A DNA stretch of 64,000 nucleotides from an uncultured Planctomycetia bacterium. Its GTDB lineage: Bacteria > Omnitrophota > Gorgyraeia > Tantalellales > Tantalellaceae. The stretch lies in contig CAYQUS010000008.1 of assembly GCA_964421015.1 (NCBI GenBank), positions 1,932-65,931 on the forward strand, in the 5' to 3' direction. A program made the position numbers and the translations under genes. How positions within the stretch are numbered: position 1 is the stretch's first letter; every line of letters begins with the position of its first letter. The notes beneath the pieces are model-generated. The model had not been told where the DNA came from and made no database searches. It saw nothing but the letters and a program-made list of their open reading frames with translations. Positions 30,601-59,491 of the stretch are shown piece after piece.

Positions 30601-31072
30601 GAAAAAAGCTGACAGGATGCTTCAAGAACAGATGAAAACAGCCGCTAAAAGCGACCTGGGAGGGGATGGCCATATCGTTCTTTTCGCTCCGCATAAGAAT
30701 GCCGGGATTAACCTCGATGAGGGAGAAATAAAGGGAATGGAAGAGCAATACGGGAACCTCACGGTGGTCCCGGACGCTTATACCGATTATGACGCCAAAA
30801 GCGAAAGCTGCCCGGATATCTTTACAAGGGCCGTTCTAGCAAGGCATATAGCTTTCGCGTTTAAAAGCAAGGATCCTCTTGCCGTAATGAACATAATGGA
30901 TTTTCTGAACGGGGTCTCCGGAGAAAAAATATCAGAGGAAGAAATAAAGAACATAAAAGATCTGGCGGCCGTTATAAAGTATCTTTTCAACAACCCTCTC
31001 AAATTAAGTTCGGTCTTCGAGAATCTTGTCCAGATGCAGGAGTCCTATCAAGCCGTCGCAAGGTCTCTGTAA
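24662..31072 (+). CDS. giant (2136 aa) multidomain protein: N-terminal hydrophobic anchor, possible TraB/GumN/Tiki-like domain, PPDK/PEP-synthase-type ATP-grasp nucleotide-binding domain, PEP-utilizer phosphohistidine swivel domain, ~700 aa unknown C-terminal region
   Basis: AGGAG RBS before the ATG at 24662; the track ORF begins at 24647. ATP-grasp motifs at ~aa 930-1250: GKGSPNGFVITTDTY, SVRSGAAISLPGMMDTSLDV, VVVQEMVLGD, SGVMKTRDIKTGE...GEFLENSKGKDLVDGSKTPRNL, EIEFTVEDGELYILQTRSANLT. Swivel domain at ~aa 1290-1440: GIGTSPGGMLGRVAF, VIFVAETTDVEDV, GGMTSHAAGYTYRWNIPGIVGAEG (catalytic His), ISEGSILGMDGSNGNVY. No TIM-barrel PEP-utilizer C-domain is present. The N-terminal region has YVQDAHC and ILVTGGFHS motifs resembling the two His motifs of the TraB/GumN family (weak). 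Confidence 0.75.
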   Translation: MFLFLRKTFIMFFAVVFLSHTEGSVLYSLENAPGKGAIFEEKSADDEGIVLNALTFSIPEHLGIVNDRWQGSSSPVVIYVQDAHCNYEAQQKLSQIVAYVNEKYGIETVDLEGGAGGYDLSALTDVTDPVSRRNIADFFVKEGLVNGAEYFAANNPEKVRLWGVEDRELYMENLGVYRDSLAYREKAKGHIAELKRVIGKFKEKMYSPELLLVDEKRGEFRKNDVELAEYMAFIFGEAENNSVDISAYPNISMLKKISDKESSIDFRKADKEKDQLVDRLKRALSKRSMEELLRWTIDLKAERMSQGEYYRRLLETARKVNVPVEDLSQLGEYVEYMSMFDSVDKSAAMKELEALDGAVREKLYKADGERELDELSRDLEILEGIFDISLVKSEYRYYMDNSGDFDVARYQSFISKYATLYGMEAAFNKEIFSLDDYRGRMIRFFEYSFRRDDAFLKNLSVRRSGGASPEAAILVTGGFHSENLCELFRNNNISYVSVMPNFRSPAGYESPYFARLAGGGSVVSVLEPAVTAASAMQVASLFSGIARDVWGDNADKSIRAAVKVMEMRGVEYLSGISKVEYADGKFTFTMKSGEEDEWSREESAELKGETLGRSSATDIGEGVLPFRLYSWENKGDSIFSGDVSAGEIKQLVRGASSIPFVVVGEEIVDPVSGKTRIGLKEILFGSPGMAHGSMLEIYTAGKEDIPFYIGFLYQGSVKTVGIPEELKYLNGLVEKMFKEEGLADPGYVIAEQEERTLLFVDPFSGQAMEFNAENSKTHDDILKEFSSQLKTGLKDLKSGNTPSNNLWNMLGYDPGSERHRQVIEKLDDWARQSERDQEELSIGGIIDFYHVSTGFSHDGEKVVTVQLPVFEGWYEIFAASNRELYRKLLEYAQGARLVEKFYGKDNTGKNTLIDLPEVEMISSDRLKRRHVFSLDEKDVTEKYKATFGNKAAGIARVKTLLNEKKLPGKGSPNGFVITTDTYREWLRNGKTLTERTRNEIFRAIRDLQFQRKMIEGKSEEFTVSVRSGAAISLPGMMDTSLDVKIRKIGEGEDFGDAWGTVIDEITKVFESWESPRALEERSRRGISDSFGTAVVVQEMVLGDLVKRDYTSSFTGVMKTRDIKTGEVGVSGEFLENSKGKDLVDGSKTPRNLRDFTKWDFSTGVKRKITSVRELEFRKDLYSQLEKWATVLEEYYGYPQEIEFTVEDGELYILQTRSANLTPRAEFTLLQEQFLGGLISETDAMRKMPAILSGMAKPSMKTEEKPLVSGIGTSPGGMLGRVAFSRESAERMIEEESLKPEKEKLPVIFVAETTDVEDVGTVKKIGDSGGGVVTLKGGMTSHAAGYTYRWNIPGIVGAEGLSLENGKLVSKDGKTVISEGSILGMDGSNGNVYYRSDQDYEGLYEVTQSPLTKKIQSDLVSLGDLTALAFALSGILSGEKTAVDSSDSLEIIDHSEYEDQNEIAAVGINGYISISNRDRLALSPQVGTPASVMRLVVVKKDTGEYAFVLDFGAVFHKDIMPESTHYAHGSVYFEAGGGKNISIFSPVTADRFRIGNEDSFREIHKAFLKAIESDELLSEALKGANLVTSISSELGGKKIRSTVGVTKASSGLIGKLYTDKEGAVMDEDIVTGISSDGKTVNVTSSDGSALYDENGNEVEGITVTEGVIGDEQKTAIKEKIVALRQKSSGLGRMKSQYDSIMLNLESVMAGESSVLAAENMPEGVFALPVTGTRQIVVSKAILEGILSGREAAILPMFHESGEMMKDKIENETGIVAHTFMRGVGQKVRDAIKDIVKNGKFKEGMSTQDFFALINEELAVTRQGTPLTDAEKKLMLFNLNGREELSLNDLTDEYASIYGGLQDKVFGKAANENFTKDYTSKEEARARASARAARVDGIVKAMGQVEMKHSLVKAVVGVPDNGMYEAEVTRMLGQVNSDLADLGFGLVESTSYSRQGDKRQVIPYKIVQNDPEQTRKNYEEAVKKADRMLQEQMKTAAKSDLGGDGHIVLFAPHKNAGINLDEGEIKGMEEQYGNLTVVPDAYTDYDAKSESCPDIFTRAVLARHIAFAFKSKDPLAVMNIMDFLNGVSGEKISEEEIKNIKDLAAVIKYLFNNPLKLSSVFENLVQMQESYQAVARSL

Positions 31073-31128
31073 AACAAGCGCCCAAAATACACGTTTCCCG
31101 GAAAAACAGGTTGTGGTATAGTATCCGC

Positions 31129-32367
31129 ATGGAAAAAGCCCCCAAATCATTAAGGCTTCATATAGGCGTTTTCGGAAGGACGAATGTCGGGAAATCCAGT
31201 TTTCTTAACCTTGTGGCCGGGCAGGATGTCGCAATAACCAGCCCTATACCGGGCACGACCACCGACGTCGTGGAGAAGACCATGGAACTTCTGCCGCTCG
31301 GGCCCGTGGTGTTCCTGGATACGGCAGGAATAGACGACGTCTCCGCGCTGGGGGAAAAACGCGTGGAGAAGACGCGCAAGGTTTTTGCCAGGGCCGACAT
31401 AATATGTCTTGTCACCGAAGCCGGGAAATGGGGCGAGTTCGAAGATAAGGTGATAGAGGAGGCCCGGGGAAAGGGCGTTCCCGTGGTAGGAGTTGTCAAC
31501 AGGATAGACGAACATTATCCTGACAGTGAGTTTACGTCGCTTTTGGCCGGGAAGACCTCGGGGCACATAATGGTGTCCAGCATAGACACCGGGAAAAGAG
31601 ACGTTTACCTTAACGCGCTCAAGGAAAAACTGATAGATCTTGTACCGGATGATTTTTTGAAGCCGCCGCCGATACTGGGAGATCTTGTCCCAAGGGGAGG
31701 CCTTGCGGTCCTCGTAGTGCCCATAGACAAGGAAGCCCCTAAAGGCAGGATAATACTTCCGCAGGTCCAGACCATACGCGATTGCCTGGACAACGACATC
31801 ATTTCCATAACTCTTAAAGAAAGCGAGTACCCCGAAGTTTTTCCTTTGCTTAAACGCAAGCCGGACCTTACGGTATGCGACTCTCAGGTGGTAAAAAAAT
31901 TTGTATCGGATACCCCGGACGGAGTTAAGTGCACGACTTTTTCCATACTGTTTTCCAGGTGCAGGGGAGATCTTCTCGAGGCCGTTAACGGAGTGAGAGC
32001 CGTAGACGGTCTAAAACAGGGAGATAAGGTTCTTGTGGCCGAGGCATGCAGCCATCACGCCGTGGAAGACGATATAGGCAGGGTCAAGCTGCCAAGGTGG
32101 CTCAAGGAGTATCTGGGGCATGAAGTTCATATCGATGTATACGCCGGAAGGGACTACCCCGAGAACCTTTCGGAATACAAACTTATAATACATTGCGGCG
32201 GATGCATGATAAATAGAAGAGAGATGCTGCACCGAATTAACGTGGCCAGAAAAGCCATGGTACCCGTTACAAATTACGGCGTCTGCATATCCCACATACA
32301 GGGTGTTCTTGAAAGGGTGCTTTCGCCTTTTCCGGACGCTCTTGGGCTCTACAAGTCCTCAAAATAA
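31129..32367 (+). CDS. hydF: [FeFe]-hydrogenase maturation GTPase HydF homolog
   Basis: G1 motif GRTNVGKSS. The N-terminal half is collinear with Thermotoga HydF (AITSPIPGTTTDVVEKTMELLPLGPVVFLDTAGIDD). The C-terminal cluster motif CSHH-x46-HCGGC matches CxHx(44-53)HCxxC. The track start at 31111 is a TTG; the ATG at 31129 fits the HydF N-terminal length. Confidence 0.85.
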   Translation: MEKAPKSLRLHIGVFGRTNVGKSSFLNLVAGQDVAITSPIPGTTTDVVEKTMELLPLGPVVFLDTAGIDDVSALGEKRVEKTRKVFARADIICLVTEAGKWGEFEDKVIEEARGKGVPVVGVVNRIDEHYPDSEFTSLLAGKTSGHIMVSSIDTGKRDVYLNALKEKLIDLVPDDFLKPPPILGDLVPRGGLAVLVVPIDKEAPKGRIILPQVQTIRDCLDNDIISITLKESEYPEVFPLLKRKPDLTVCDSQVVKKFVSDTPDGVKCTTFSILFSRCRGDLLEAVNGVRAVDGLKQGDKVLVAEACSHHAVEDDIGRVKLPRWLKEYLGHEVHIDVYAGRDYPENLSEYKLIIHCGGCMINRREMLHRINVARKAMVPVTNYGVCISHIQGVLERVLSPFPDALGLYKSSK

Positions 32368-34424: not shown

Positions 34425-35819
34425 ATGTCTCTCACGCTTATAGTCTTAGCTATGTTTTTTTCGGTTGTAACGGCGATACGTCCTTTGAGGATAGGGAAGA
34501 TATCGATAGATATGGTTACAGGTCCGGTGCTTGCGCTCGCGGTCCTGGTATTTAGCGGAGTTATCGACTCCGATACAATGGCGCTTGGGATAAAAGGAAC
34601 AGGGCCCTTGAGGCCCTGGGAAATAGTAGTTATTTTTTTTACGTCGGCCTACGTGAGCATAAGCCTTGAGGTGACCGGCATACTGGATTTTTTCTCGTAT
34701 AAAATAGTTCATAAAGCCGGCGGCAACGGGCTTAAACTTTTTCTGTTCTTTTACCTTTTTTCATGCTTTCTCACGGTTTTTACGTCCAATGATATAGTCA
34801 TACTGATACTGACCCCCATTATTTTTTATCTTGGTAAACACGCCGCTTTGAACATTATCCCTCTTCTTTTCGCGGAGTTTTTCGGAGCGAACACACTGAG
34901 CATGCTTCTTTACATAGGTAATCCCACCAACATCATAGTGGGGAATGCCCTGTCTATTGGGTTCCTGGAATATACGAGGGTAATGTGGATACCCACAGTC
35001 ACGGCCGGTGTGGCAAATCTTGTTCTTTTGTTCGTTTTTTTCAGAAAGGCTCTTACGGTGAAATTCAAACCGCATTTCGGCGTGGGGTTCAGCGTCAGGA
35101 ACTGGGCCGACGCCGTGATAAGTTGTGGTCTTCTCCTGCTTATGCTGGCAACCCTGACCTTTTCAAGGCCGCTTGGTCTTCCTATATGGGTGGTTACAAG
35201 TTTTTTTGCCGGGGTTTTCATGGCCGAAGACCTTGCTTTCGGGTTTTACTATACCATCAAGCATAAATTCCTGCCGGCCAGCGAGATAATAAAAGACGAG
35301 AGAGAAGTCTTCAGGCTTTACGGTATACCGGAAGAGCGCCATGAGTTCTGGATAGCGATCAAAAGGATACCGTGGAAGATACTGCCTTTTACACTTGTCT
35401 TTTTTATCCTGGTGGCTGCTTTGGGGAAACTGGGAGCCGTTGACAGGCTGGCGTCGCTTATCGCGGTTTACTCCGGAGACCTGGCGAGCAGCATCGCTGT
35501 TAACGGAATTCTCGGATTTATTTCTGCGAATGTTATAAACAACCAGCCTATGACGATACTTTTCAGCAACGTTCTCATAAGCGAAAGTTTCAAGATCTCT
35601 CATCAGGCCTTCAAGGGAGGAGCTTACGCCGTTATAATAGCCAGTAATCTCGGGGCTAACCTGACACTATTCGGGGCCCTGGCGGGACTTATGTGGAGGA
35701 GAATACTTGAAACAAAGGGACTTGAAATAAGCTATTCCGATTTTTTAAAAACGGGCGTGTTTATAACACCCGTTGTTTTTATCCTATCGCTGGCGGCGCT
35801 GTATTTGGTCTTACTGTGA
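34425..35819 (+). CDS. ArsB/NhaD-superfamily permease (putative anion transporter)
   Basis: It has about 12 TM helices and ArsB/NhaD-like repeats (IVILILTPIIFYL...GANTLSMLLYIGNPTNIIVGN...). Substrate unknown. Confidence 0.55.
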   Translation: MSLTLIVLAMFFSVVTAIRPLRIGKISIDMVTGPVLALAVLVFSGVIDSDTMALGIKGTGPLRPWEIVVIFFTSAYVSISLEVTGILDFFSYKIVHKAGGNGLKLFLFFYLFSCFLTVFTSNDIVILILTPIIFYLGKHAALNIIPLLFAEFFGANTLSMLLYIGNPTNIIVGNALSIGFLEYTRVMWIPTVTAGVANLVLLFVFFRKALTVKFKPHFGVGFSVRNWADAVISCGLLLLMLATLTFSRPLGLPIWVVTSFFAGVFMAEDLAFGFYYTIKHKFLPASEIIKDEREVFRLYGIPEERHEFWIAIKRIPWKILPFTLVFFILVAALGKLGAVDRLASLIAVYSGDLASSIAVNGILGFISANVINNQPMTILFSNVLISESFKISHQAFKGGAYAVIIASNLGANLTLFGALAGLMWRRILETKGLEISYSDFLKTGVFITPVVFILSLAALYLVLL

Positions 35820-35838
35820 GAGAACATCGGGATTTTTC

Positions 35839-37134
35839 ATGAAGACATTCCTTATCGTGAACCCATGGATATACGATTTCGCGGCTTATGACCTGTGGAT
35901 GAAACCATGGGGGCTTCTCAAGATAATGTCAGTGCTCAAATCCTCCGGGCACGGCGCCGTTCTGGTTGACGCCATGGACAGGCATCACAGGCTCATACCC
36001 GGAGAGGTCAGGGACAAGCCTGACGGCACGGGCAGGTTCATGTCACAGGAAATACCAAAACCCGCGGCGCTTAAAGGTATACCAAGGAAGTACAAGAGAT
36101 ACGGGCTTTCCAGGGAGCTTTTTGAGGCCGCCTTGCCAGGTTGCAGAGTGGATGCCATTCTTGTTTCAAGCGGGATGACCTACTGGTACCCCGGGGTTTT
36201 TGAAGCCATAAAGATACTTAAGAAAAGATACAAGGCGCCGGTGATACTCGGGGGCGCGTACGCTACGCTTTGTCGTGAACATGCGGTCAGGGAAAGCGGA
36301 GCCGATCACGTAGTAAGTAACGGAGATTTCCGCGGGCTTGAGGAGGCTATGGGCGTAGAATGCGGTTTTTCGTTCAGGAGCCTGCTGGAAGCGGATGCCG
36401 ATATTTCTTCTTACACGTTCAATCCTTATGCCGTTCTAAGGGTATCTTTGGGATGTCCTTTCAGCTGCGCTTACTGCGCCCAGAAAAAACTCGGTCCGGG
36501 TTTTATGCTCAAGAGCCTCGATGGGGCAATAAAAGAAGTAAAGGCCTTCTATGACAGGGGCATAAAAAACTTCGCTTTTTATGACGACGCCTTGTTATTC
36601 GACGGGGATCATATAGAGGAGTATTTTTCGGCGGTAGTAGAGGAGGGAATAAAGGGAAAGTTTTACACGCCGAACGGCCTTCACGCCAGATTTTTGAAAG
36701 AGAAGACCGCTTTTCTTATGAAAAAAATGAATTTTGTCAACCCGATACTGAGCCTTGAAACGGCAAACTGTGAAGTGGCGGAAACATGGCACGATAAGGT
36801 CGACAGAGACGAATTTAGGACGGCAGTGAACAATCTGAGAGCAGCCGGGTACAAAAAGGGGCAGTACACCGTGTATCTTATGCTGGGGGCTCCCGGAAGT
36901 TCCACCCGGGATGTAAAGGAAAGCATGGAATTCGCTCACTCTCTGGGGGCGAGAATATCTTTAAGCGAATACTCTCCCATATCCGGGACATTGATGTCGG
37001 AACGTCTCGGGGAAAGGCCCGAGGACCCTCTTATGGAGAATAACAGTATTTTTCCGTTTTACTCGCGGTCTACACGGGATACCGGCGCCGACAAACTTAA
37101 ATCCGAGGCTAAAATCCTTAATGCCTCTCTTTGA
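35839..37134 (+). CDS. B12-binding-domain radical SAM protein (class B radical SAM)
   Basis: An N-terminal Rossmann-like B12-binding-type domain is followed by LRVSLGCPFSCAYCAQ (CxxxCxxC) at ~aa 220 and a half-TIM-barrel remainder. The track start at 35773 overlaps the upstream gene; the ATG at 35839 is preferred. Confidence 0.7.
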   Translation: MKTFLIVNPWIYDFAAYDLWMKPWGLLKIMSVLKSSGHGAVLVDAMDRHHRLIPGEVRDKPDGTGRFMSQEIPKPAALKGIPRKYKRYGLSRELFEAALPGCRVDAILVSSGMTYWYPGVFEAIKILKKRYKAPVILGGAYATLCREHAVRESGADHVVSNGDFRGLEEAMGVECGFSFRSLLEADADISSYTFNPYAVLRVSLGCPFSCAYCAQKKLGPGFMLKSLDGAIKEVKAFYDRGIKNFAFYDDALLFDGDHIEEYFSAVVEEGIKGKFYTPNGLHARFLKEKTAFLMKKMNFVNPILSLETANCEVAETWHDKVDRDEFRTAVNNLRAAGYKKGQYTVYLMLGAPGSSTRDVKESMEFAHSLGARISLSEYSPISGTLMSERLGERPEDPLMENNSIFPFYSRSTRDTGADKLKSEAKILNASL

Positions 37135-39792: not shown

Positions 39793-40374
39793 ATGATCAA
39801 GAACATACTGATGACATTTATTCCGTTATTTGTCGCGGTGGACGCTATAGGAGTTCTGCCCATATTCGTTTCTCTTACAGAGAACGCGACTAAGAGGGAA
39901 AGGGCGAACATTATTCTCAGGTCTATCGCTACGGCGGTTTGTATCGCTTTGGGTTTTATCTTCCTGGGAAAGGCCGTATTCCGTGTGTTGAATATAACCG
40001 TTGCCGATTTCATGGTGGCGGGAGGAGTTCTTCTTTTCTGTATAGCGATAATGGATATACTTAATCCCGTTAAAAAAAGACGCATACCCGACAGCGAGCT
40101 TGGTTTTGTTCCCCTGGGGACGCCTCTTATAGCCGGGCCGGCGGTGCTTACGACATCTCTATTGATGCTGGACGCGTACGGCCTTGCCGCGACTATTGTT
40201 TCCGTAGTGGCCAATGTGTTTCTGGCGGGTATAGTCTTTTTCTCGTCATCAGCAGTGATAAAACTTCTTGGCGTGGCCGGGACGAGAGCTTTTTCAAAAA
40301 TAACAAGCCTGCTTCTGGCGGCCATAGCTGTCATGATGATAAGAAAGGGAATAGTTTTAATGATGGGTTTTTAG
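39793..40374 (+). CDS. MarC-family (UPF0056) integral membrane protein
   Basis: FIPLFVAVDAIGVLPIFVSLTEN is the canonical MarC N-terminus. It has 6 TM helices. Confidence 0.8.
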   Translation: MIKNILMTFIPLFVAVDAIGVLPIFVSLTENATKRERANIILRSIATAVCIALGFIFLGKAVFRVLNITVADFMVAGGVLLFCIAIMDILNPVKKRRIPDSELGFVPLGTPLIAGPAVLTTSLLMLDAYGLAATIVSVVANVFLAGIVFFSSSAVIKLLGVAGTRAFSKITSLLLAAIAVMMIRKGIVLMMGF

Positions 40375-40463: not shown

Positions 40464-43400
40464 ATGTGTTGTCCAGGCAGGCATACAACTATTAAAAGAA
40501 CGGTTTCGTTGGCTGTGGTCTTCTTGTTACTGGTCAACGATATTTCCTACGGCGCAGGCCGTATTTTCCCCTTACCGAACAGGTCTAATCTGTCCGCTCC
40601 TTTATCCACCGAACCCGTATGTGAAGTGGAGAGACTTCCGGGAGGACGTTACGGGGTAACCTTAAAGGACACTTCCAGGCTAAGGAATAAATGGGGTTTT
40701 CTCGAAGGTGTTTATCTCGCGGGCGACATCCTGCGTCTTTGCGGGGAATATGATTTTGAGCGTCCGGAAGAACTTCTCAGCAGGCTGTTTAGAAGCCGCC
40801 CCGGGACGGCCGAAGCCTTAAGCGAAATAACCGGTATAAAAGACTCCGGGAAGTTTAAGGCGTTCAGGATGTGTTTTGAAACCCCCGGCGGCGAGTCTTA
40901 TTTCATCAAGGTTTCTTTGGCAGCGCCGGGTCTTTCGGGGAAAGATAATATTTTTGTTCTTCGCGACGGGACAAAAATAAGCGTGGAAATAGAGAATGGT
41001 CCCGCGGAATATCCCGGAGAGGTCAAATTTGAGGGGACAGGAGAACCCGACACGAGTGAAAGTTTCCCGGATGGGGCTGTAGCGGAAGATGAACCCGACG
41101 ACATAGCAAAGCTTAAGATAACTCCTAAAATAATCCTGTCTCATGTTTTTCTGGCTCTGGTATTCTACGTTGTTGTACAAGAGGTCACCGGGCTTAACTC
41201 CCTATTGTTATGGCCTCTGACCGCATATATTTTCGGCACTACTTTGGCGCTCGATACCTGTATACAGGGGTTTCGTGTTTTCGGTTCTCCTCTGGGAAAG
41301 ATAATAAAGAGAAGGTTTTCCGGACTCTCCGTCGGGGAAGAAAGAACAAGAATGGCGGAAGAGAGGAAAGAGCGTCTTAAGGAATATTTCGAAAGTTTAA
41401 AAAAGAGAGACCCGCTGTACGGCAGATACCCCATCTTTTTCGCCGGCAGGGATATTTTCCCCGACAAGCTCGACGGAAAACTTTTTTTCGGTAAAAAGAA
41501 ACATCTGGCCATAAATGAAGATTTTCTCGAAGGGCCTTTTCTTGAGGCCAGGTTCAGGGCGCTTTATCGGCACGCCAGCCACGAGATGTATCTCAATGAG
41601 CGCGATTATAAAAGGTTTTCAGCCGAGCTTCTTGCCAGGGTGTTCGAGTACTCAAGTGGGAACCTTTTAATAGGGGCTCTTGTATTCATTCCCTCTCTTG
41701 TGGCGGCAAGAGTGAACACTCTTTACGGGAAACTTGCTCCCGGGTTTATGTCTTACGCCGCCCATGCGGGAAAGTCTTATGCAGTCCTAGGAAGCATATT
41801 TGTAGGTGTGGAGATATTTACGGCTTTTCTCAAGGCGACGTTACTTCCGCTTTCCGGGGCCTGGATAGCGCAGGGGATGCCTGTTCTGGGAACAGCGGGG
41901 CTTTTTGCCTGTACTTTTGCCGGGGGGGTACTTAGAGAGGTTGCGGCCATAGTTTTTTATGCCGCCCAACCGGGTCTTCCTCTGGGGAAGGTTCTCTTTA
42001 CGGCCTGGATACCTTACGTGGGATTTTATTTCTCTCTTCCCATGCAGGTTCTGGACGCGGGTATAGGCGATATGCGGCGAATGAACAAGATAGCTAACAA
42101 GGTTATAGACAGCGCCAACCGCAGCCAGCTTGAGCATGCCAAGAAGGTCATAGTCAGAAAACAAGCTTTTCCTATCGCGCGGGAAATCTTCAGTTACGAA
42201 GAGAAGAACAACATACGCTTTAGGATAAGGAAGGATTCTCATTCCCCGGAAAAGATAGAAAATTCGCTTATAATGGGGGAGCGGCCTGTGCTTCTTGTCG
42301 GGGAGGCCGACACTGTCGAAAAAACACTTTCGGGACTTAAAGTGGCTCCCTTTCTTCTGGGGCAGACTTTCGTGCTTGTCGTTAAGGAAGATAAGACATA
42401 CGGCGTGGAAAGAGCTTCCGAATGGATAGCCCGGAGAAATGGCGACGTTCTGACACGCGACCAGACAACTTCAGAAAATTTTCCATCCACGGCTCCAGAC
42501 GGGACGGTCAGGCTGAGTTTCACGGTCAACATGGGCAGGATGACCGGAAGGCAGCTTGACCTTGTCCTAAGTCAGGCCGGAGTAAGCAAGGCTTCCGTGG
42601 TCAAACAGGTCATTTTCGTGCGTGACAGGGCCCATGAAAAACAGGTCAGGAAGAGGCTTAAAGCTTATTACGGGGACCTTCCGGCTACCAGTTTTGTGTA
42701 CCAGTCTCCCCTGGGAGGAGATGTCTCTGTGGAGATAGCGGCTGAGTCTTCCGGACAGGCCAGGGTAACAAGGATAAGCGACAAGATCACGGTGGTCGAA
42801 AAGAACGGGGTTAAAGAAGCTCATGTCTCTGGAATAAGGCCCGCGTGGTGGGACAGGGATCCGTACAGGCAGGTTCAGAAGGCTTTTAAAGAGGCGGAAT
42901 CCCTGTTATCAGCAGCCGGTTTTGATTTCGCCGATGACGTAAAAAGAATATGGCTCTACCAGAAAAATATTACCGGGTCCTATCTTTTCTTTTCGGAAAG
43001 ATACCAGCGTCTTAACGACGGACGGGACGTGTTCTTTACGGAGCAAAAGATGAAAGGAAGAGGTTGGTACCCCGCGTCGACAGGTATAGGCATGTCAAAT
43101 GGGTCTATGTTGCTGGAATGCCTTGCTGTTAAGGGGGATAAGGAGGATTTGACTTTTAAACCTCTGGAGAACCCAGAATCAACGAACGCCCATGAGTATG
43201 ATAAGGAAAAGGTTCTTAAAAAAGGCGTTCATAAAACATCTAAGCCCCCGCTCTTTTCCCGGGGGATATCGGTCATCAAAGGAAAACACTCAAGGATATA
43301 CATTTCCGGAACAGCTTCCGTAAAGGGGCCCCATGTTGTTCATCCCGGGGATGTCGAAAAGCAGACAAGCACAACGATAGAAAATATAGGCATAGTCCTT

Positions 43401-44975
43401 TCCCGCGGCGAAGCGGAACTAAAAGATATCACCCAGCTCAGGGTATACATTAAGAACCCTGAGGATTTTCAGAAAGTTAAGGCCATAGTAGAGGCCGAAT
43501 TTCCTCACGCCCCTCCGACCGTCTATCTGCACGCGGATGTTTGCAGGGACGGCTGGCTGGTCGAGATAGAGGCTGTAGCTGACAGGATATTTTCTTCGGC
43601 AGAATCCATGCCGTCAGGCGAGGACAGCGGAAGCTCGGGCCGTGAAGATAGAGAAGGAGAGCCCAGGGCTTTACCGTCCGATAAAAGGCCCGCTTCTTCA
43701 ATAACGGAGGCGGAACTGGAGAAAATAATTTCAAATGGAGTGTTCGACATGACGGTGGATGGATATGTCGACAATCTGAGAGGGTACGAAAAAAATGTCG
43801 CTGATCGGCGGGTCCTTGACGTAGGCACGGGGCTGGGACAAATGGCTTTGTGGGCGGAAAAAGCCGGAGCTATCGAGATAACGGGTCTTGATATAAATCC
43901 GGAGGCGGTAAACGCAGCCAGGCGTCTTTCCGTGGAAAGAAAGACCAGGGTCAAATTTGAAAATAAAGACGTGTTCTCGGTTTCCCTGAAAGAAAAAAAC
44001 ATGGAAGTAATAACCGCTGCTTTTTTCTGGGAATTCGTTCCCGAAGAAAGAAAAGAGGAGCTTCTGAAAGAATTTTTCGACGCTCTGCCGCCCGGCGGGT
44101 CTGTGTTTTTCGTGGTAAGTAACGACGGAGTTTACGGCAGGGGGAAGGACTCTATGCCCGCGCTTCTCTCCAGGCCCCAGGGCGCTATTCCCGGTGAGCC
44201 ATGGTCTCATCACAATTGGAAAAGAGGACTTAAAGAGGCCGGATTCGAGGAGATAGAGACCAGATACATATGGGAAGAACCTGTGGGCGAGGCCGATCAA
44301 AAAAGTGTTATGAGCGTTGTCACCGCTCGCAAAAAAGGTGATCTTGAGAAAGAGAAATACAGAAAGGAGATAATCCACGCGCAGAACTTCAGGACCGCAG
44401 CCGGGTATATGCAGGGAAAGTCGCTTGATACGGCGGTCTGCCGAGGACAGGCTCCGGGACGGCGCATAATAGCCGTGGGCAGAAGCTGGCTTAAATCGTA
44501 TTTCCCGGGGAGCTATCAGCACAGCGCTTTTAATCCTCTTGTAAGCGCTATAAAGAACTACTGCGAGGGGATAGGGGTGCCCTTTATTATAGCGGATGAT
44601 GAAGATCTTCCCTGGCTTATCTCGAGAGAGAGGGAAAAGCGCAATATGCCAGAAGATACAAAGGTGATAATGCTTGCCGGAGCCAGGGCGGACGGAGAGA
44701 TTCCCGACATTTTAGAAGAACTTTCGCGTAACAAGCTTTACACGGTAGTAGGAGTGGACAGCTCAAAAATGCATCCGGGAGGGTATATCCGCATAATGGA
44801 AATACTGACAATAGCCTTGTGGCTTTCCATGGGGGTCCATCCCGATCCGGAAAATGAGAACATGGAGATATTGCCACCCGATTCGTTAAGACCCATATAC
44901 GTTATAGTTCCGCATTCCGCTCCCATGGACTACGGGATACTCAAGTTCATATATTCCATACAGAGATACGCTTGA
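40464..44975 (+). CDS. 1503-aa membrane protein: signal peptide + periplasmic domain + multi-TM region + tandem RidA/YjgF-like domains + class I SAM-dependent methyltransferase + unknown C-terminal domain
   Basis: One uninterrupted ORF. The RidA-like segment reads ISGTASVKGPHVVHPGDVEKQTSTTIENIGIVLSRGEAELKDITQLRVYIKN...PPTVYLHADVCRDGWLVEIEAVA; an earlier segment (VIFVRDRAHE...SFVYQSPLGGDVSVEIAAE) is similar. Methyltransferase motif I is VLDVGTGLGQMALWAEKAGAIEITGLDIN, with a post-I acidic residue and motif II/III-like FFDALPPGGSVFFVV. Confidence 0.65.
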   Translation: MCCPGRHTTIKRTVSLAVVFLLLVNDISYGAGRIFPLPNRSNLSAPLSTEPVCEVERLPGGRYGVTLKDTSRLRNKWGFLEGVYLAGDILRLCGEYDFERPEELLSRLFRSRPGTAEALSEITGIKDSGKFKAFRMCFETPGGESYFIKVSLAAPGLSGKDNIFVLRDGTKISVEIENGPAEYPGEVKFEGTGEPDTSESFPDGAVAEDEPDDIAKLKITPKIILSHVFLALVFYVVVQEVTGLNSLLLWPLTAYIFGTTLALDTCIQGFRVFGSPLGKIIKRRFSGLSVGEERTRMAEERKERLKEYFESLKKRDPLYGRYPIFFAGRDIFPDKLDGKLFFGKKKHLAINEDFLEGPFLEARFRALYRHASHEMYLNERDYKRFSAELLARVFEYSSGNLLIGALVFIPSLVAARVNTLYGKLAPGFMSYAAHAGKSYAVLGSIFVGVEIFTAFLKATLLPLSGAWIAQGMPVLGTAGLFACTFAGGVLREVAAIVFYAAQPGLPLGKVLFTAWIPYVGFYFSLPMQVLDAGIGDMRRMNKIANKVIDSANRSQLEHAKKVIVRKQAFPIAREIFSYEEKNNIRFRIRKDSHSPEKIENSLIMGERPVLLVGEADTVEKTLSGLKVAPFLLGQTFVLVVKEDKTYGVERASEWIARRNGDVLTRDQTTSENFPSTAPDGTVRLSFTVNMGRMTGRQLDLVLSQAGVSKASVVKQVIFVRDRAHEKQVRKRLKAYYGDLPATSFVYQSPLGGDVSVEIAAESSGQARVTRISDKITVVEKNGVKEAHVSGIRPAWWDRDPYRQVQKAFKEAESLLSAAGFDFADDVKRIWLYQKNITGSYLFFSERYQRLNDGRDVFFTEQKMKGRGWYPASTGIGMSNGSMLLECLAVKGDKEDLTFKPLENPESTNAHEYDKEKVLKKGVHKTSKPPLFSRGISVIKGKHSRIYISGTASVKGPHVVHPGDVEKQTSTTIENIGIVLSRGEAELKDITQLRVYIKNPEDFQKVKAIVEAEFPHAPPTVYLHADVCRDGWLVEIEAVADRIFSSAESMPSGEDSGSSGREDREGEPRALPSDKRPASSITEAELEKIISNGVFDMTVDGYVDNLRGYEKNVADRRVLDVGTGLGQMALWAEKAGAIEITGLDINPEAVNAARRLSVERKTRVKFENKDVFSVSLKEKNMEVITAAFFWEFVPEERKEELLKEFFDALPPGGSVFFVVSNDGVYGRGKDSMPALLSRPQGAIPGEPWSHHNWKRGLKEAGFEEIETRYIWEEPVGEADQKSVMSVVTARKKGDLEKEKYRKEIIHAQNFRTAAGYMQGKSLDTAVCRGQAPGRRIIAVGRSWLKSYFPGSYQHSAFNPLVSAIKNYCEGIGVPFIIADDEDLPWLISREREKRNMPEDTKVIMLAGARADGEIPDILEELSRNKLYTVVGVDSSKMHPGGYIRIMEILTIALWLSMGVHPDPENENMEILPPDSLRPIYVIVPHSAPMDYGILKFIYSIQRYA

Positions 44976-45237
44976 TACATGGCGCGCAAGATATGACCTT
45001 CGCGGACAAAAATCCAACTATCCTTATTTATCCCCGGATAAACGCCGGATAAAAGACTTTTTGTCTATAGCTTCCCCATGTGATAGTATTATATCCGGTG
45101 TCTCTGGGGCGGACATGAATATTGTTGCCCGCATCCGGGATGAATTCTAACTGTCACGCAAAAATCCGTTCTTTGCCGACGGCAGCGCACGGTCCTTGTC
45201 GGATGAGAAAAGACGGAACAATTTCAGGGAGGGAACG

Positions 45238-45516
45238 ATGACCAAGGCTAAGGCAAGACATATTCTTTTTTCTTCAAAAGAAAAATGCGAAGAGGTAAAA
45301 AAACAGATAGAGTCGGGTAAATCCTTCGCCGAAATGGCCAAACTCCACTCTTCGTGTCCTTCCGGAAGGTCGGGGGGAGACCTGGGGGAATTTTCTCCCG
45401 GGGAAATGGTGCCGGAATTCGACAAAGTGGTTTTTTCGGCAGAGGTAGGCAAGGTCCACGGGCCGGTTAAAACGGGGTTCGGGTACCATCTCATAGAGAT
45501 ACTGAGCCGCGGTTGA
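45238..45516 (+). CDS. parvulin-type peptidyl-prolyl cis-trans isomerase (PpiC/Par10-like)
   Basis: ARHILF...SGGDLGEFSPGEMVPEFD...GYHLIEI. GGAGGG RBS before the ATG at 45238. Confidence 0.85.
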   Translation: MTKAKARHILFSSKEKCEEVKKQIESGKSFAEMAKLHSSCPSGRSGGDLGEFSPGEMVPEFDKVVFSAEVGKVHGPVKTGFGYHLIEILSRG

Positions 45517-56502: not shown

Positions 56503-58026
56503 ATGGCCGGAAAAAGCGTGAAAAAAAATACCGCTGAAAAATCCGCGCGGAAGAAGGGAAGAGGGAACCTCATAATCGTGTCCAATAGGCTGCCGTACAC
56601 AAGAGGCGGCGCTAATGGAGAGGATTTTTTGTGGCAGAAGTCCACGGGCGGTCTTATAACCGCGATGGAACCTATATTGCTTTCCAGAAGAGGCACCTGG
56701 GTGGGCTGGGACGGTATGGTAGACCGTTCTCCCGATAAGGCAAGACCCCGAATACTCGATGTTAAGTCCATAAGAACGTCAGAAAAGAAACCCCGGACAG
56801 AAGGTTCATACGGGATACTATGCGTTCCTGTAAGCGAAAAAGAGGTCAAAGAGTATTATGACGATTTTTCCACCGGTACCCTGTGGGGGCTTTTTCATTA
56901 TTTTTTCGAAAAATGCCGTGTGGATTCCCGCGCATGGAAGACCTACTGTTCGGTAAACAGGAGGTTCGCCAGGTATATCTCCGAAATAGCCGGGGATGAA
57001 GATGTTGTCTGGGTACAGGATTTTCATCTTTTCATGGTGCCGCATTATTTAAGAGCTCTAAGGCCCCGGCAAAAGATACATTTTTTTCTGCACATACCGT
57101 TCCCCCATACCGATATACTCGACATACTCCCCTGGCAGCCGGAGATCCTTGGGTCGCTCCTGGAATGCGATACGGTAGGGTTTCATCACGAGCAGTATCT
57201 CCGAAATTTCCGGGAGGCGGTCGAGAAATACAGAGAGGGCCTTAAGGAAGGAGCTGTCATTACCGGAGAGAAAGACCTTACTCCGGAAAAACCGCGAAAG
57301 ACATTCTTCTACGCCAACCCCATCAGCATAGATTTTGATCTTATAGACAGTACATCCAGGAAGGCCGCCGTGATCGAAAGAAGAGATGAGATAAGAAGGC
57401 AGGCCGGATGCGAAAAAATACTTCTGGGGGTTGACCGCATAGATTACTCCAAGGGCATAGCGGAGAGGCTGGAAGGAATAAAACTTCTTCTGGAATCCCA
57501 TCCGGAACTGAGTGAAAAAATATTCTACTACCAGCTTGTTATACCGAGCAGGGAAAACGTGAAGGAGTATAAGGCTCTCAAGCGTAAGATAGACGAGCTT
57601 ATCGGCCAGATAAACGGCAGGTTCTCTACCGGGCTTTGGGCACCGGTCCACTACAACTACGGAACGGTGGATCTTAACGAGCTTGTGGCGCTTTACATGG
57701 CCGCCGACGTGGCTCTTGTGACGCCTTTAAGGGACGGGATGAACCTCGTATGCAAGGAATTTGTGGCCGCCAGGTCCGACGGTGACGGCGTGCTGGTCCT
57801 GTCAAAGTTCGCTGGCGCGATAGCGGAGATAAAGAACTGCCTTCCGGTGAACCCTTACAGCGTGGAAGATATAGCCGACGTTGTTTACCGGGCTTTAAAT
57901 CTCCCGGAAGAGGAGAGGCGACTGCGGATGGGCAGGATGAGAATGAACATAAAGGGCAATAACATAGCGGGTTGGCTTCAGAAATGCCTTGAGTATTTCG
58001 ATATCGCGCAAAGAGGTAAGGAATGA
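56503..58026 (+). CDS. otsA: alpha,alpha-trehalose-phosphate synthase (GT20, OtsA)
   Basis: [25 protein letters not shown] and the GT20 C-terminal motifs ([12 protein letters not shown]). Confidence 0.9.
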
Positions 58027-58823: not shown

Positions 58824-59491
58824 ACGAGGGAAGATCCGGTAAAGATCCCTTTCATTTTTATTCAAGAATGCTTCTCCCCGAACTTACCGGACTCAGGGCC
58901 TCTGATCTGGGGGAGATGCTTTCGATAATAAAAAACGCTGAGCCTTCGGTTATCTATCATCACACCCACAGGTTCATACAGCAGCATCAGTATCTTACTC
59001 CGGAGCCTCCGAATGACTTCGCTTTCTGGATAAGCGGTGTTCTGGGGGAATACAAGCTCGGGGAAAAACTTGAGAGCATAAGCACAATAGACTTTCCGTC
59101 CATAGGGGCGCTTAAGGATAAAATTGTTTCCGTAATAGAACAATACGTAAAATCCTGTCCCGAGGCCCTGAACAGGAAGGCCCATCCCGGGGAAGAGTTC
59201 CATTTTGTCAAATCCGTGAGCTTTATTTTTCCTACTGACTATTGGGCCGCTGACCTGGATGAGTTCGCCGAGGCTCTAGGAAAAGTAGCTATGAGCTCGA
59301 TATACTTTCATATGTTCGAGGCCAGGCTCAGGCTTGAAAAAGGGAACAACGATTTTTCTTTCTGGATAGGTTCTTCTATGGGGGATACCGAGCTGGCGGG
59401 GAGAATATCCAGGCTTGACCCCTACACGTACACTCTTGAACAGCTCAGGGAAAAGATAATAAGTATGATAAAAGAGAGGAAGGTGAACTGA
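58820..59491 (+). CDS. hypothetical protein with internal duplication, embedded in trehalose operon
   Basis: Two repeats are present: NDFAFWISGVLGEYKLGEKL...ALKDKIVSVIEQY and NDFSFWIGSSMGDTELAGRI...LEQLREKIISMIKE. ATGA overlap with otsB. It ends 1 nt before treT. Confidence 0.5.
   Translation: MNEGRSGKDPFHFYSRMLLPELTGLRASDLGEMLSIIKNAEPSVIYHHTHRFIQQHQYLTPEPPNDFAFWISGVLGEYKLGEKLESISTIDFPSIGALKDKIVSVIEQYVKSCPEALNRKAHPGEEFHFVKSVSFIFPTDYWAADLDEFAEALGKVAMSSIYFHMFEARLRLEKGNNDFSFWIGSSMGDTELAGRISRLDPYTYTLEQLREKIISMIKERKVN

What the first reader, a model, noticed from the sequence alone, without database searches (positions are those of the whole stretch)
40464..44975. 1503-aa single ORF fusing periplasmic domain, polytopic membrane region, tandem RidA/YjgF-like domains and a SAM methyltransferase
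RidA-like (L-PSP) domains are normally small stand-alone deaminases. Class I methyltransferases are usually soluble. Here both are fused in one membrane-anchored giant. It has a ~200 aa extracytoplasmic N-domain, multiple TM helices and a ~300 aa unknown C-terminus. I do not recognise this architecture. It suggests a membrane-coupled small-molecule modification, which might be signal-dependent.
Basis: partly seen in the sequence, partly recalled or inferred. Interest (0 to 1): 0.6.

Follow-up and report, generated by a model that had tools for sequence, protein, structure and literature searches.

The report
Membrane chorismatase–methyltransferase with shared end domains
This is a real 1503-residue gene from an uncultured Omnitrophota bacterium that joins a chorismate-cleaving enzyme and a methyltransferase to a membrane module, framed by two undescribed end domains that a rare family of proteins uses to carry many different enzymes.

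Summary
The 1503-aa ORF at 40464..44975 (+) is real. A second strain from another assembly has the same length with only 19 substitutions, and a 59%-identical orthologue sits in a syntenic locus. The "tandem RidA" region is a distant FkbO/Hyg5-type chorismatase. It keeps the catalytic Glu (E1034) and the Hyg5-type residues G874, G949 and C1027. It lacks the Arg that RidA deaminases need. The class I SAM methyltransferase call holds. The main new result concerns the "periplasmic N-domain" and the "unknown C-terminus". They are conserved head and tail domains of a very rare family. Members carry a signal-peptide-like N-terminus, the head, a variable cargo, and a tail ending ..VQKFA. Cargoes seen include histidine-kinase ATPase, methyltransferases, B12-radical SAM, HAD hydrolase, glycosyltransferase, racemase and a 6923-aa multi-enzyme giant. 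Head, membrane module and tail match nothing in Pfam or PDB. The cargo set mirrors that reported for Omnitrophota "Archaeovorin" giant proteins. My best reading is a membrane-tethered enzyme that converts chorismate to hydroxybenzoate plus pyruvate and also transfers a methyl group. Which side of the membrane the enzymes face is unresolved, and so is the role of head and tail.

The parts
40464..44975 (+). Whole ORF, 1503 aa plus stop
   Evidence: Identical length in the independent assembly P0007. Orthologue P0002 in a syntenic locus.
40464..40553 (+). aa 1-30: signal-peptide-like N-terminus. Positive n-region (R6, K11, R12), an 11-residue hydrophobic core VSLAVVFLLLV, then NDISYG|AG
   Evidence: Read directly from the sequence; hydropathy. 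The same type of segment occurs in every head-bearing family member, some with AYA|V or SYA|V sites. Cleavage is inferred, not shown.
40554..41003 (+). aa 31-180: 'head' domain (motifs LSAPLSTEPVCEV, RNKWGFLEGVYLAGDIL)
   Evidence: Exhaustive HMMER search: only P0002, P0010, P0011, P0012 and P0013 share it. A head HMM also hits L006, L009, two proteins in L010, L014 and L015. No Pfam hit at E<=10. AF2 gives an alpha+beta fold with pLDDT 70-80 for aa 80-180. No PDB fold match.
41004..41108 (+). aa 181-215: acidic, poorly conserved linker
   Evidence: pLDDT about 30.
41109..42098 (+). aa 216-545: membrane module. Predicted helices are 221-242, 246-268, 401-431, 439-469, 473-501 and 507-531, with a soluble insert at aa 276-396
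   Evidence: Hydropathy. Low-confidence AF2 model. Shared only with P0002 (64% id), the giant P0009 at aa 3569-3879 (35% id) and, in part, P0014 at aa 805-906. No Pfam hit.
42099..42503 (+). aa 546-680: basic helix followed by a small alpha/beta linker domain (RFRIRKDSHS...PVLLVG)
   Evidence: Conserved in P0002 and P0009. Its resemblance to the tail is only weak: hhalign probability 13%.
42504..43583 (+). aa 681-1040: FkbO/Hyg5-family chorismatase module. E1034 is at 43563-43565, C1027 at 43542-43544, G949 at 43308-43310 and G874 at 43083-43085
   Evidence: TIGR04444 E 1.8e-28, PF01042 86 bits, PF21168 27.1 bits. PDB Hyg5 and FkbO hits. The core is 88% and 79% identical to P0002 and P0010, against 33-34% for the head.
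43584..43748 (+). aa 1041-1095: Ser/Glu/Arg-rich linker
   Evidence: not conserved.
43749..44318 (+). aa 1096-1285: class I SAM-dependent methyltransferase (motif I VLDVGTGLG, acidic D in ITGLD, LPPGG)
   Evidence: Methyltransf_25/23/11/12/31 all above their cut-offs. PDB methyltransferases 3mgg and 1wzn. 45% identical to the methyltransferase of P0010. Specific equivalog models (UbiE, UbiG, CpaM) score far below their cut-offs.
44361..44972 (+). aa 1300-1503: 'tail' domain ending IYSIQRYA-COOH (motifs GRSWLKSY, FNPL, YIRIMEILT)
   Evidence: 24-sequence alignment A3. It sits at the extreme C-terminus in every member. AF2 pLDDT 78.9, pTM 0.79, flavodoxin/Rossmann-like alpha/beta fold. Best PDB Foldseek E 9e-3 with TM <= 0.32. 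No Pfam or PDB sequence match.
45196..45516 (+). Parvulin-type peptidyl-prolyl isomerase gene directly downstream (context, possibly a partner)
   Evidence: PF00639, E 4e-23. The same gene follows the orthologue in L001 and L002.
39793..40374 (+). MarC-family membrane protein gene directly upstream (context)
   Evidence: PF01914, E 2e-35. Conserved upstream of P0002 but not of P0010.

Best explanation
The ORF is an intact gene of a Candidatus Omnitrophota bacterium. It belongs to a rare modular protein family built as signal-peptide-like N-terminus, head domain, variable cargo, tail domain. In this member the cargo is a roughly six-helix membrane module, a Hyg5-type chorismatase and a class I SAM methyltransferase. 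Proposed mechanism: the protein sits in the cell's own inner membrane with the enzyme modules facing the cytoplasm. The chorismatase protonates the enolpyruvyl methylene of chorismate through E1034 and releases pyruvate plus a hydroxybenzoate. The G874/G949/C1027 signature points to 3-hydroxybenzoate, but 4-hydroxybenzoate is not excluded. The methyltransferase moves a methyl group from SAM to this product or to another membrane-proximal acceptor. Head and tail are family-wide accessory domains for targeting, assembly or regulation, not for catalysis. Shown here: gene integrity, domain identities, conserved catalytic residues, family membership, cargo swapping, and much stronger sequence conservation of the chorismatase core than of the head or tail. 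Inferred: enzyme activity, the product, the methyl acceptor, cytoplasmic orientation, and the role of head and tail.
For: Gene integrity. Chorismatase: TIGR04444 E 1.8e-28 and PF21168 just above its cut-off; Hyg5 E 3e-16 and FkbO E 2e-13 in PDB. Hyg5 E334, C327, G240 and G173 align to E1034, C1027, G949 and G874. E334 is reported as the essential catalytic acid, and Gly/Gly/Cys as the signature of the CH-II/Hyg5 subfamily (PMC7170507). FkbO has Ala at both switch positions. The RidA-essential Arg aligns to T1019, as in the chorismatases. Conservation: the chorismatase core is 88% and 79% identical to P0002 and P0010 against 33-34% for the head, and none of the 19 strain differences fall in aa 824-1040. 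Methyltransferase: five Pfam class I models above cut-off and intact SAM motifs. Family. Cytoplasmic orientation: chorismate and SAM are cytoplasmic metabolites. The flanks after helix 246-268 (GKIIKRRF) and after helix 507-531 (MRRMNKIANK) are strongly basic, and the flank before helix 221 is acidic.
Against: TIGR04444 scores 99.7 bits against a curated cut-off of 325. Only profile positions 81-310 align, so this is a distant relative and activity is unproven. One paper states that product type cannot be read reliably from alignment alone (PMC3949708). The N-terminus looks like a Sec signal peptide. Most family members have no other hydrophobic segment, which formally places head, cargo and tail outside the cytoplasm. 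P0010 carries the same head, chorismatase and tail without any membrane module, so head and chorismatase should lie on the same side of the membrane. With six spans after a signal peptide, that side would be the periplasm. The aa 1-700 model is low confidence (pLDDT 51), so the number of spans (5 or 6) is not settled. The syntenic orthologue lacks the methyltransferase, so coupling of the two enzymes is doubtful. No quinone, aryl-polyene or shikimate genes lie in the window.
Confidence: 0.5

Rival explanations
1. Exported or displayed effector. The signal peptide is functional, and head, cargo and tail lie outside the producer's cytoplasm. The cofactor-dependent enzymes act only after delivery to, or insertion into, a host or prey cell. 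There the chorismatase would destroy chorismate, the precursor of aromatic amino acids, folate and quinones. Head and tail would be secretion or delivery signals of a lineage-specific system.
For: Every head-bearing member has a canonical signal-peptide layout, and most have no other transmembrane segment. With six helices the C-terminal part falls on the same side as the head, which matches the TM-less homologue P0010. Omnitrophota are inferred to be predators or parasites. Their giant proteins carry the same domain set (methyltransferase, HATPase_c, radical SAM, PPDK_N, HAD, glycosyltransferase) and are mostly predicted extracellular. The 6923-aa tail-bearing protein P0009 contains a Fic domain. 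A parvulin foldase gene is conserved directly downstream.
Against: This ORF is an integral membrane protein, which is hard to deliver into another cell. The commonest cargo is a histidine-kinase-type ATPase, which makes sense in the cell's own cytoplasm. B12-radical SAM cargo (L010) would lose its cofactors if exported unfolded through Sec, and no twin-arginine motif is present. Tail-only members L012 and L024 have no signal peptide. No secretion-system or immunity genes are conserved next to family members. The authors of the giant-protein study themselves call some predicted localisations highly unlikely.
Confidence: 0.2
2. Quinone-precursor supply, a more specific form of the best explanation. 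The chorismatase provides 4-hydroxybenzoate for ubiquinone synthesis in place of the missing chorismate-pyruvate lyase UbiC, as XanB2 does in Xanthomonas. Membrane tethering places it near the prenyltransferase UbiA, and the fused methyltransferase acts as a UbiG/UbiE-like ring methylase.
For: Seymour et al. report UbiA in more than 50% of Omnitrophia and Aquiviventia genomes but no UbiC, and suggest an alternate source of 4-hydroxybenzoate (PMC10066038). XanB2-type chorismatases make 4-HBA for coenzyme Q (PMC3949708). Among the best NCBIfam methyltransferase hits are MenG/UbiE (E 1.7e-9) and UbiG (E 4.7e-8).
Against: The signature residues are Hyg5-type (3-HBA), not shown to be XanB2-type. 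The UbiE and UbiG scores (37 and 33 bits) are far below their cut-offs (158 and 103), so they indicate only a generic class I fold. The orthologue P0002 lacks the methyltransferase. No ubi genes lie in the window or in the related loci. The class of this MAG, and whether it has UbiA, are unknown. The family is far too rare (8 hits in 1.84 billion representatives) to explain a phylum-wide gap.
Confidence: 0.12
3. Sensor-output protein. The head is an extracytoplasmic sensor, the membrane module transmits, and the cytoplasmic enzymes are the regulated output. One possible output is 3-hydroxybenzoate acting as a diffusible signal, as in Xanthomonas.
For: A five-span topology would put the head outside and the enzymes inside, and it fits the charge distribution. 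Related members fuse the same chorismatase to histidine-kinase-like modules with an H-box-like motif (RSxxHGAFTDP). L006 has exactly one hydrophobic segment between head and cargo. 3-HBA is the diffusible factor of Xanthomonas.
Against: Most head-bearing members, including the kinase-type ones, have no second transmembrane segment, so the head cannot generally be a periplasmic sensor wired to a cytoplasmic output. No receiver or response-regulator partner is conserved nearby. The head has no similarity to known sensor domains.
Confidence: 0.1
4. RidA-type imine/enamine deaminase domains fused to a methyltransferase.
For: PF01042 scores 86 bits and TIGR00004 gives E 1e-14. RidA homologues of known structure match aa 943-1039.
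Against: The best matches by far are the chorismatases, and they extend over about 215-235 residues rather than about 100. The Arg essential for RidA imine hydrolysis (PMC4433059) aligns to T1019. TIGR00004 scores 54.7 bits against a cut-off of 106.
Confidence: 0.03
5. Assembly chimera or decaying fusion of 2-3 genes.
For: None found. The linkers at aa 181-215 and aa 1041-1095 are poorly conserved.
Against: The ORF is full length in a second strain from another assembly with no indels. Fragments from a third assembly cross the junctions. Homologues with the same head, chorismatase and tail order come from four other contigs. All modules are conserved.
Confidence: 0.02

Closest known systems
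Chorismatases of the FkbO/Hyg5/XanB2 family (TIGR04444; PDB 5ag3 Hyg5, 4bps FkbO), subtype CH-II/Hyg5, 3-hydroxybenzoate synthase EC 4.1.3.45
   Same: About 215-235 residues align (E 3e-16 to Hyg5). The motifs PA(A/S)TGIG, SGTAS and DVCR...LVEIE are shared. The catalytic Glu and the Gly/Gly/Cys signature are present, and the RidA Arg is absent.
   Different: Known chorismatases are soluble proteins of about 340 aa encoded in natural-product or pigment/quinone clusters. This one is an internal module of a 1503-aa membrane protein. It scores well below the curated family cut-off (99.7 against 325 bits), and its first ~120 residues do not align to the family profile. No biosynthetic cluster surrounds it.
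Archaeovorin-type giant proteins of Omnitrophota (West-Roberts et al. 2023 preprint; 2026 complete-genome preprint)
   Same: Same phylum. The repertoire of fused domains is the same: methyltransferase, HATPase_c, radical SAM, PPDK_N, HAD, glycosyltransferase. They also have a signal-peptide-like N-terminus, scattered transmembrane helices, and the same conflict between predicted extracellular location and cofactor needs. One tail-bearing relative is 6923 aa long.
   Different: This protein is 20-60 times smaller. It has no SecA-like, C39 or S8 peptidase domain or beta-helix. Term searches of the two preprints and one full section returned no mention of the head and tail domains.
Secretion cargo with a shared sorting domain (for example type IX secretion substrates with a C-terminal domain) and polymorphic toxins. 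This is an analogy of logic only, from general knowledge.
   Same: A signal peptide plus interchangeable functional modules plus a conserved terminal domain. Paralogues lie in tandem (L010, L004).
   Different: The tail is a ~200-aa alpha/beta flavodoxin-like domain, not a beta-sandwich CTD. Both ends are conserved, not only one. The cargoes are metabolic or signalling enzymes, not hydrolases or nucleases. No immunity or secretion genes are conserved nearby.
Class I SAM-dependent small-molecule methyltransferases (Methyltransf_25/23/11; UbiE/UbiG/TehB-like)
   Same: Fold-level Pfam matches above cut-off and intact SAM-binding motifs.
   Different: No curated equivalog is reached, so the substrate is unknown. 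Here it is an internal module of a membrane protein.

Membership tests
FkbO/Hyg5/XanB2 chorismatase family | Significant sequence similarity to characterised or solved chorismatases across the catalytic core | tested here: met
   Hyg5 5ag3 E 3.4e-16 (aa 824-1038 to 124-338); FkbO 4bps E 1.6e-13; TIGR04444 E 1.8e-28 over profile 81-310.
FkbO/Hyg5/XanB2 chorismatase family | Score at or above the curated family cut-off (TIGR04444, 325 bits) | tested here: not met
   99.7 bits. PF21168 (FkbO_Hyg5-like_N) only just passes: 27.1 against 27.
FkbO/Hyg5/XanB2 chorismatase family | Catalytic acid equivalent to Hyg5 Glu334 | tested here: met
   E1034 in LVEIE aligns to Hyg5 E334. Its role is taken from PMC7170507.
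FkbO/Hyg5/XanB2 chorismatase family | CH-II/Hyg5 subtype signature Gly/Gly/Cys (Hyg5 G173, G240, C327) | tested here: met
   G874, G949 and C1027. FkbO has Ala at the latter two positions. The signature is from PMC7170507. Mapping from Nat-Hyg5 numbering uses a constant offset of 9, which I inferred.
FkbO/Hyg5/XanB2 chorismatase family | Complete N-terminal part of the ~340-aa fold | tested here: inconclusive
   Profile positions 1-80 are not aligned. aa 681-823 is conserved among the orthologues at 55-64% but was not modelled.
FkbO/Hyg5/XanB2 chorismatase family | Conversion of chorismate to hydroxybenzoate or dihydroxycyclohexadienoate plus pyruvate | not testable with these tools
   Needs an enzyme assay.
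RidA/YjgF imine deaminases | PF01042 domain | tested here: met
   86 bits, aa 942-1039.
RidA/YjgF imine deaminases | Conserved Arg (E. coli TdcF Arg105) needed for imine hydrolysis | tested here: not met
   It aligns to T1019 in the alignment with PH0854. The requirement is from PMC4433059.
RidA/YjgF imine deaminases | Curated RidA subfamily score (TIGR00004, 106 bits) | tested here: not met
   54.7 bits.
Class I SAM-dependent methyltransferases | Rossmann-like methyltransferase fold models above cut-off, with motif I GxGxG and an acidic residue after beta-2 | tested here: met
   Methyltransf_25 58.7/27, _23 53.8/27, _11 50.7/21.2. VLDVGTGLG and ITGLD are read.
UbiE/UbiG/CpaM methyltransferase equivalogs | Score at or above the curated equivalog cut-off | tested here: not met
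   CpaM 43.9/180, MenG_UbiE 37.3/158, UbiG 32.6/103.
Head-cargo-tail family (defined here) | Head domain after a signal-peptide-like N-terminus | tested here: met
   phmmer of aa 1-700 finds P0010 (1.7e-17), P0011, P0012 and P0013 through aa 5-179. Head HMM hits in L006, L009, L010 (two proteins), L014 and L015.
Head-cargo-tail family (defined here) | Tail domain at the extreme C-terminus, with YIR(I/L)ME(I/M)LT and a terminal ..Y.(V/I)Q..A | tested here: met
   Alignment A3. The termini are listed. This ORF ends IYSIQRYA.
Archaeovorin-type giant proteins | Gene longer than 90 kb with SecA-like and peptidase domains | tested here: not met
   The gene is 4.5 kb and has none of these domains.
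Sensor histidine kinases | HisKA/HATPase_c catalytic module | tested here: not met
   Absent from this ORF. Present in the relatives P0002 and P0010.

The most novel reading that the evidence does not exclude
Head and tail are the address labels of an Omnitrophota-specific export, display or assembly system that handles interchangeable cofactor-dependent enzymes. On this reading the family are small, tractable versions of the phylum's giant 'Archaeovorin' proteins. This member would be a chorismate-destroying enzyme delivered to, or inserted into, a host or prey cell.
Probability: 0.15. Interest if true: 0.85.

Novelty: new variant of a known kind. Interest (0 to 1): 0.6.

Why it matters
The catalytic parts are known kinds of enzyme, but their setting appears to be new. 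I found no previous report of a chorismatase built into a polytopic membrane protein. The two end domains match nothing in Pfam or PDB.

The end domains define a very rare family that carries the same mix of enzyme domains found in the giant proteins of Omnitrophota. The function and location of those giants are open questions. Proteins of 900-1700 aa with the same logic can be cloned and assayed, whereas 30,000-85,000-aa proteins cannot. They could therefore be used to test whether such cofactor-dependent domains really end up outside the cell.

The chorismatase is also a candidate for the 'alternate source of 4-hydroxybenzoate' that Seymour et al. proposed for Omnitrophota lacking UbiC. The evidence here favours a 3-hydroxybenzoate-type enzyme, though, and the family is too rare to fill that gap across the phylum.

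Tried and rejected
- **Genome-contig scan with the two-sequence alignment.** The tool chose poor patterns from the head and found only an unrelated methyltransferase.
- **Word-index protein searches.** They returned very few relatives and did not even recover known members. The exhaustive HMMER search and the metagenome pattern scan were much more useful.
- **Viral contigs.** No relatives of the tail.
- **Foldseek against PDB.** The tail model gave only generic flavodoxin/Rossmann-like hits (E >= 9e-3, TM <= 0.32). The aa 1-700 model gave nothing (E >= 0.13). The weak protein-kinase-lobe hits there are noise, given pLDDT 51.
- **Idea that the aa 546-680 linker domain is an internal copy of the tail.** The tail HMM gave a partial hit, but the profile-profile probability is only 13%. 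Not supported.
- **Idea that the 2141-aa PPDK-like ORF or the 871-aa ORF in the window belong to the same family.** No significant head or tail match.
- **Sub-threshold UbiD hit in the linker domain (E 0.042, 13.5 bits against 23.3).** Treated as chance.
- **Promoter and terminator scan.** Counts were near the shuffle expectation, so it is uninformative.
- **Search for conserved partner genes next to family members.** Apart from the parvulin and MarC genes in the closest relative, nothing recurs.
- **Rfam scan of the window.** No hits.

Full report

An uninterrupted ORF of 1503 codons runs from an ATG at 40464 to a stop at 44973-44975 on the + strand. Base composition is even across it.

The exact protein is on record in NCBI-derived data. 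Its 90% cluster contains fragments annotated as Candidatus Omnitrophota bacterium (HPN73561.1, HPN72522.1, HPN73355.1). It also contains a full-length 1503-aa copy, P0007, from an independent Logan assembly. P0007 differs at 19 positions and has no indels. The fragments P0005 (aa 16-691), P0004 (aa 915-1323) and P0008 (aa 1316-1503) cross the module junctions.

A 1660-aa homologue, P0002, is 59% identical over aa 1-1047 and 39% over the last ~210 residues. It lies on two other metagenome contigs with the same neighbours: ArsB/CitMHS transporter, B12-binding radical SAM, MatE and MarC upstream; parvulin, carbonic-anhydrase-like protein, aminotransferase and PAP2 downstream.

The fusion is therefore a real, conserved gene and not a misassembly.

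**2. What are the recognisable modules?**

*Chorismatase, not RidA.* Pfam finds PF01042 (RidA/L-PSP, 86 bits, aa 942-1039) and PF21168 (FkbO/Hyg5-like N-terminal, aa 803-888, 27.1 against a cut-off of 27). NCBIfam's best hit is the FkbO/Hyg5 chorismatase family TIGR04444 (E 1.8e-28, aa 803-1038, profile positions 81-310 of 311). The score of 99.7 bits is far below the curated cut-off of 325.

Against PDB sequences the best matches are the chorismatases Hyg5 (5ag3, E 3e-16, aa 824-1038 to 124-338) and FkbO (4bps, E 2e-13). They rank well ahead of any stand-alone RidA protein.

- In these alignments Hyg5 E334 aligns to E1034, C327 to C1027, G240 to G949 and G173 to G874.
- E334 is reported as the essential catalytic acid of Hyg5. 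Gly/Gly/Cys is reported as the signature of the CH-II/Hyg5 subfamily, which makes 3-hydroxybenzoate (PMC7170507).
- FkbO has Ala where Hyg5 and this ORF have G949 and C1027.
- The Arg that RidA deaminases need (PMC4433059) aligns to T1019.

The "tandem RidA domains" are thus a single, distant chorismatase module of Hyg5 type. An older paper warns that the product cannot be predicted reliably from alignment alone (PMC3949708), so 3-HBA is the favoured product, not a proven one.

*Methyltransferase.* aa 1110-1265 match five class I SAM-methyltransferase Pfam models above their cut-offs and several solved methyltransferases. Motif I (VLDVGTGLG), the acidic residue after strand 2 (ITGLD) and LPPGG are intact. 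No curated equivalog (UbiE, UbiG, CpaM and others) comes near its cut-off, so the acceptor is unknown.

**3. The turn: the unknown ends are family-wide.**

An exhaustive HMMER search of aa 1-700 against 1.84 billion representative proteins found only eight proteins.

- P0010, P0011, P0012 and P0013 share only aa ~5-180.
- P0009 (6923 aa) shares the membrane module at its residues 3560-3970.
- P0014 shares part of the membrane module.

The last ~200 residues of the ORF recur at the extreme C-terminus of P0002, P0003, P0009, P0010, P0012 and P0013. A pattern scan of JGI metagenomes with the motif Y[IV]R[IL]ME[IM]L[TR] added 20 loci. In every case where the 3' end is present, the domain is terminal and ends ..IY.VQKFA or a close variant.

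Complete members have a signal-peptide-like N-terminus, the head, a variable middle and the tail. The middles seen are:

| Member | Cargo |
|---|---|
| This ORF | chorismatase + methyltransferase |
| P0002 | chorismatase + HATPase_c |
| P0010 | chorismatase + methyltransferase + HATPase_c, no membrane module |
| P0012, P0013, L009, L015, second gene in L010 | HATPase_c alone |
| L008 (5'-truncated) | HATPase_c |
| L013 | Methyltransf_28 + HATPase_c |
| L006 (2587 aa) | class I methyltransferase |
| P0011 (head, no tail) | class I methyltransferase |
| L010 (first gene) | B12-binding radical SAM |
| L012 (tail only) | radical SAM |
| L005 | HAD hydrolase |
| L018 | GT1 glycosyltransferase |
| L014 | Asp/Glu racemase |
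| P0009 (6923 aa) | GT9, GT1, Fic, AAA_11/12, Aminotran_5 + membrane module + tail |

Paralogues can sit side by side. L010 has two full members plus a fragment. In L004 the end of one member is followed by the start of a PPDK_N protein that weakly matches only the N-terminal stretch of the head profile (E 6e-7).

**4. Are head, membrane module and tail known?**

No Pfam family matches any of them even at E <= 10. A 24-sequence tail profile finds nothing in PDB sequences.

AlphaFold2 on a 9-sequence alignment gives a confident tail model (pLDDT 78.9, pTM 0.79). It is a long helix followed by a flavodoxin/Rossmann-like alpha/beta sandwich. Foldseek against PDB gives only generic matches: lumazine synthase, CbiC, LacI-type domains, TIR and type II dehydroquinase, with best E 9e-3 and TM <= 0.32.

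The aa 1-700 model is poor overall (pLDDT 51, pTM 0.28). It still suggests an alpha+beta head (pLDDT 70-80 for aa 80-180), six membrane helices with a soluble insert at aa 276-396 (pLDDT 65-84), and a small alpha/beta domain at aa 587-659. It finds no fold match.

**5. Which parts are constrained?**

Identity of each module to the two homologues that carry the chorismatase:

| Module | to P0002 | to P0010 |
|---|---|---|
| Head | 34% | 33% |
| Membrane module | 64% | absent |
| Chorismatase core (aa 824-1040) | 88% | 79% |
| Methyltransferase | absent | 45% |
| Tail | 47% | 51% |

None of the 19 differences between the two strains falls in aa 824-1040. The chorismatase core is much the most conserved part, which argues that it is an active enzyme and the main business of this orthologous group.

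**6. Mechanism and the topology problem.**

Chorismate and SAM are cytoplasmic metabolites. Because this ORF is an integral membrane protein, the only enzymatically sensible place for its C-terminal 950 residues is the cytoplasmic face of the cell's own inner membrane. The charge distribution agrees: basic flanks follow helices 246-268 and 507-531, and an acidic flank precedes helix 221.

Three observations pull the other way.

- The N-terminus has the layout of a Sec signal peptide in all head-bearing members.
- Most members have no other hydrophobic segment. P0010 has the same head and chorismatase with no membrane module at all, so head and chorismatase should be on the same side.
- With six spans after a signal peptide, that side would be the periplasm.

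Either the membrane module has an odd number of true spans in this protein, or the N-terminal segment is not an export signal, or the family is exported and its enzymes work elsewhere.

The same paradox is described for Omnitrophota giant proteins. [quoted passage not shown]

I commit to the own-cytoplasm reading for this ORF at about 0.5. I give about 0.2 to an exported or delivered effector and smaller shares to the sensor-output and quinone-precursor refinements.

**7. Context.**

The window's other genes are ordinary and varied: transporters, HydF, photolyase, aminotransferase, PAP2, an MscS channel, an AsmA-like protein and trehalose synthesis genes. They give no pathway context.

A parvulin-type prolyl isomerase directly follows the ORF here and in the orthologous locus. 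The giant-gene preprint lists a conserved Rotamase_2-domain prolyl isomerase within a conserved secretion-system locus encoded near giant genes.

Seymour et al. note that many Omnitrophota have UbiA but no UbiC, and propose another source of 4-hydroxybenzoate. A chorismatase could be that source. The signature here is 3-HBA-type, no ubi genes are nearby, and the family is extremely rare, so I rate this low.

**8. Novelty.**

The enzymes are known kinds. The architecture and the head/tail family appear undescribed. There are no Pfam, NCBIfam or PDB matches. Term searches of the two Omnitrophota giant-protein preprints returned no mention of them, and a full-text search returned no paper that describes a chorismatase-methyltransferase membrane fusion.

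I class the ORF as a new variant of a known kind, set within a probably new modular family. The literature check covers only the open-access library available here.

Noticed in passing
window 24647..31072 (+): A 2141-aa ORF with PPDK_N and PEP-utilizers mobile domains. Its N-terminal aa 20-544 are 41% identical to aa 27-555 of P0014. P0014 in turn shares the membrane sub-module (aa 805-906) with the target ORF. Large Omnitrophota proteins therefore seem to exchange modules, and this looks like a second type of N-terminal 'head'.
   Followed up: partly
window 21847..24462 (-): An 871-aa ORF with no Pfam match. Its signal-peptide-like N-terminus (KTIAKALSLSLFLAFSLPDASYA|NRNLAPGLASP) resembles that of the head family, including a LAP..L motif just after it. 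It is not a significant head or tail match.
   Followed up: partly
window 45196..45516 (+); L001 11340..11618; L002 6973..7251: A small parvulin-type PPIase gene lies directly downstream of the ORF and of its orthologue. The giant-gene preprint mentions a conserved Rotamase_2 isomerase within a secretion-system locus encoded near Omnitrophota giant genes.
   Followed up: partly
L010 7703..10621, 15994..19077 and 5261..5680: One metagenome contig carries two complete head-cargo-tail genes (B12-radical SAM cargo and HATPase cargo) plus a tail fragment. Between them lie TPR, transglutaminase-like and Abi_2 genes. In L009 a serine recombinase lies about 1.2 kb downstream of the family member (one gene between), which hints at variable or mobile regions.
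   Followed up: partly
L012 322..1986 and L024 1074..3884: These are tail-only proteins with no head and no signal-peptide-like N-terminus. L012 is a radical SAM enzyme. P0011 shows the converse: a head plus a methyltransferase with no tail. Head and tail are therefore separable modules.
   Followed up: partly
P0002 aa ~1085-1110, P0010 aa ~1150-1175, P0012 aa ~690-710: A shared motif (A/I)(V/I)RS(L/F/M)xH(G/S)(A/G)F(T/M)D precedes the HATPase_c modules. It looks like a divergent histidine-kinase H-box. No Pfam HisKA hit was obtained.
   Followed up: no
window 10148..12661 (+): A transglutaminase fused to a 7TM_transglut domain is followed by an ATPgrasp_ST gene. This is a recurrent gene pair of unknown role.
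   Followed up: no
window 31111..32367 (+) and 35773..37134 (+): HydF, the [FeFe]-hydrogenase maturation GTPase, and a B12-binding radical SAM gene. The radical SAM gene is conserved upstream of the orthologue and lies about 8 kb upstream of P0010. The listed TTG start at 35773 overlaps the preceding gene by 47 nt and may be too far upstream.
   Followed up: no
window 56503..60701 (+): A cluster for trehalose synthesis: OtsA-like GT20, trehalose-phosphatase and TreT-like synthase.
   Followed up: no
window 42099..42533 (aa 546-690): A sub-threshold Pfam UbiD hit (E 0.042, 13.5 bits against a cut-off of 23.3). It is curious next to a hydroxybenzoate-forming enzyme but is most likely chance.
   Followed up: no
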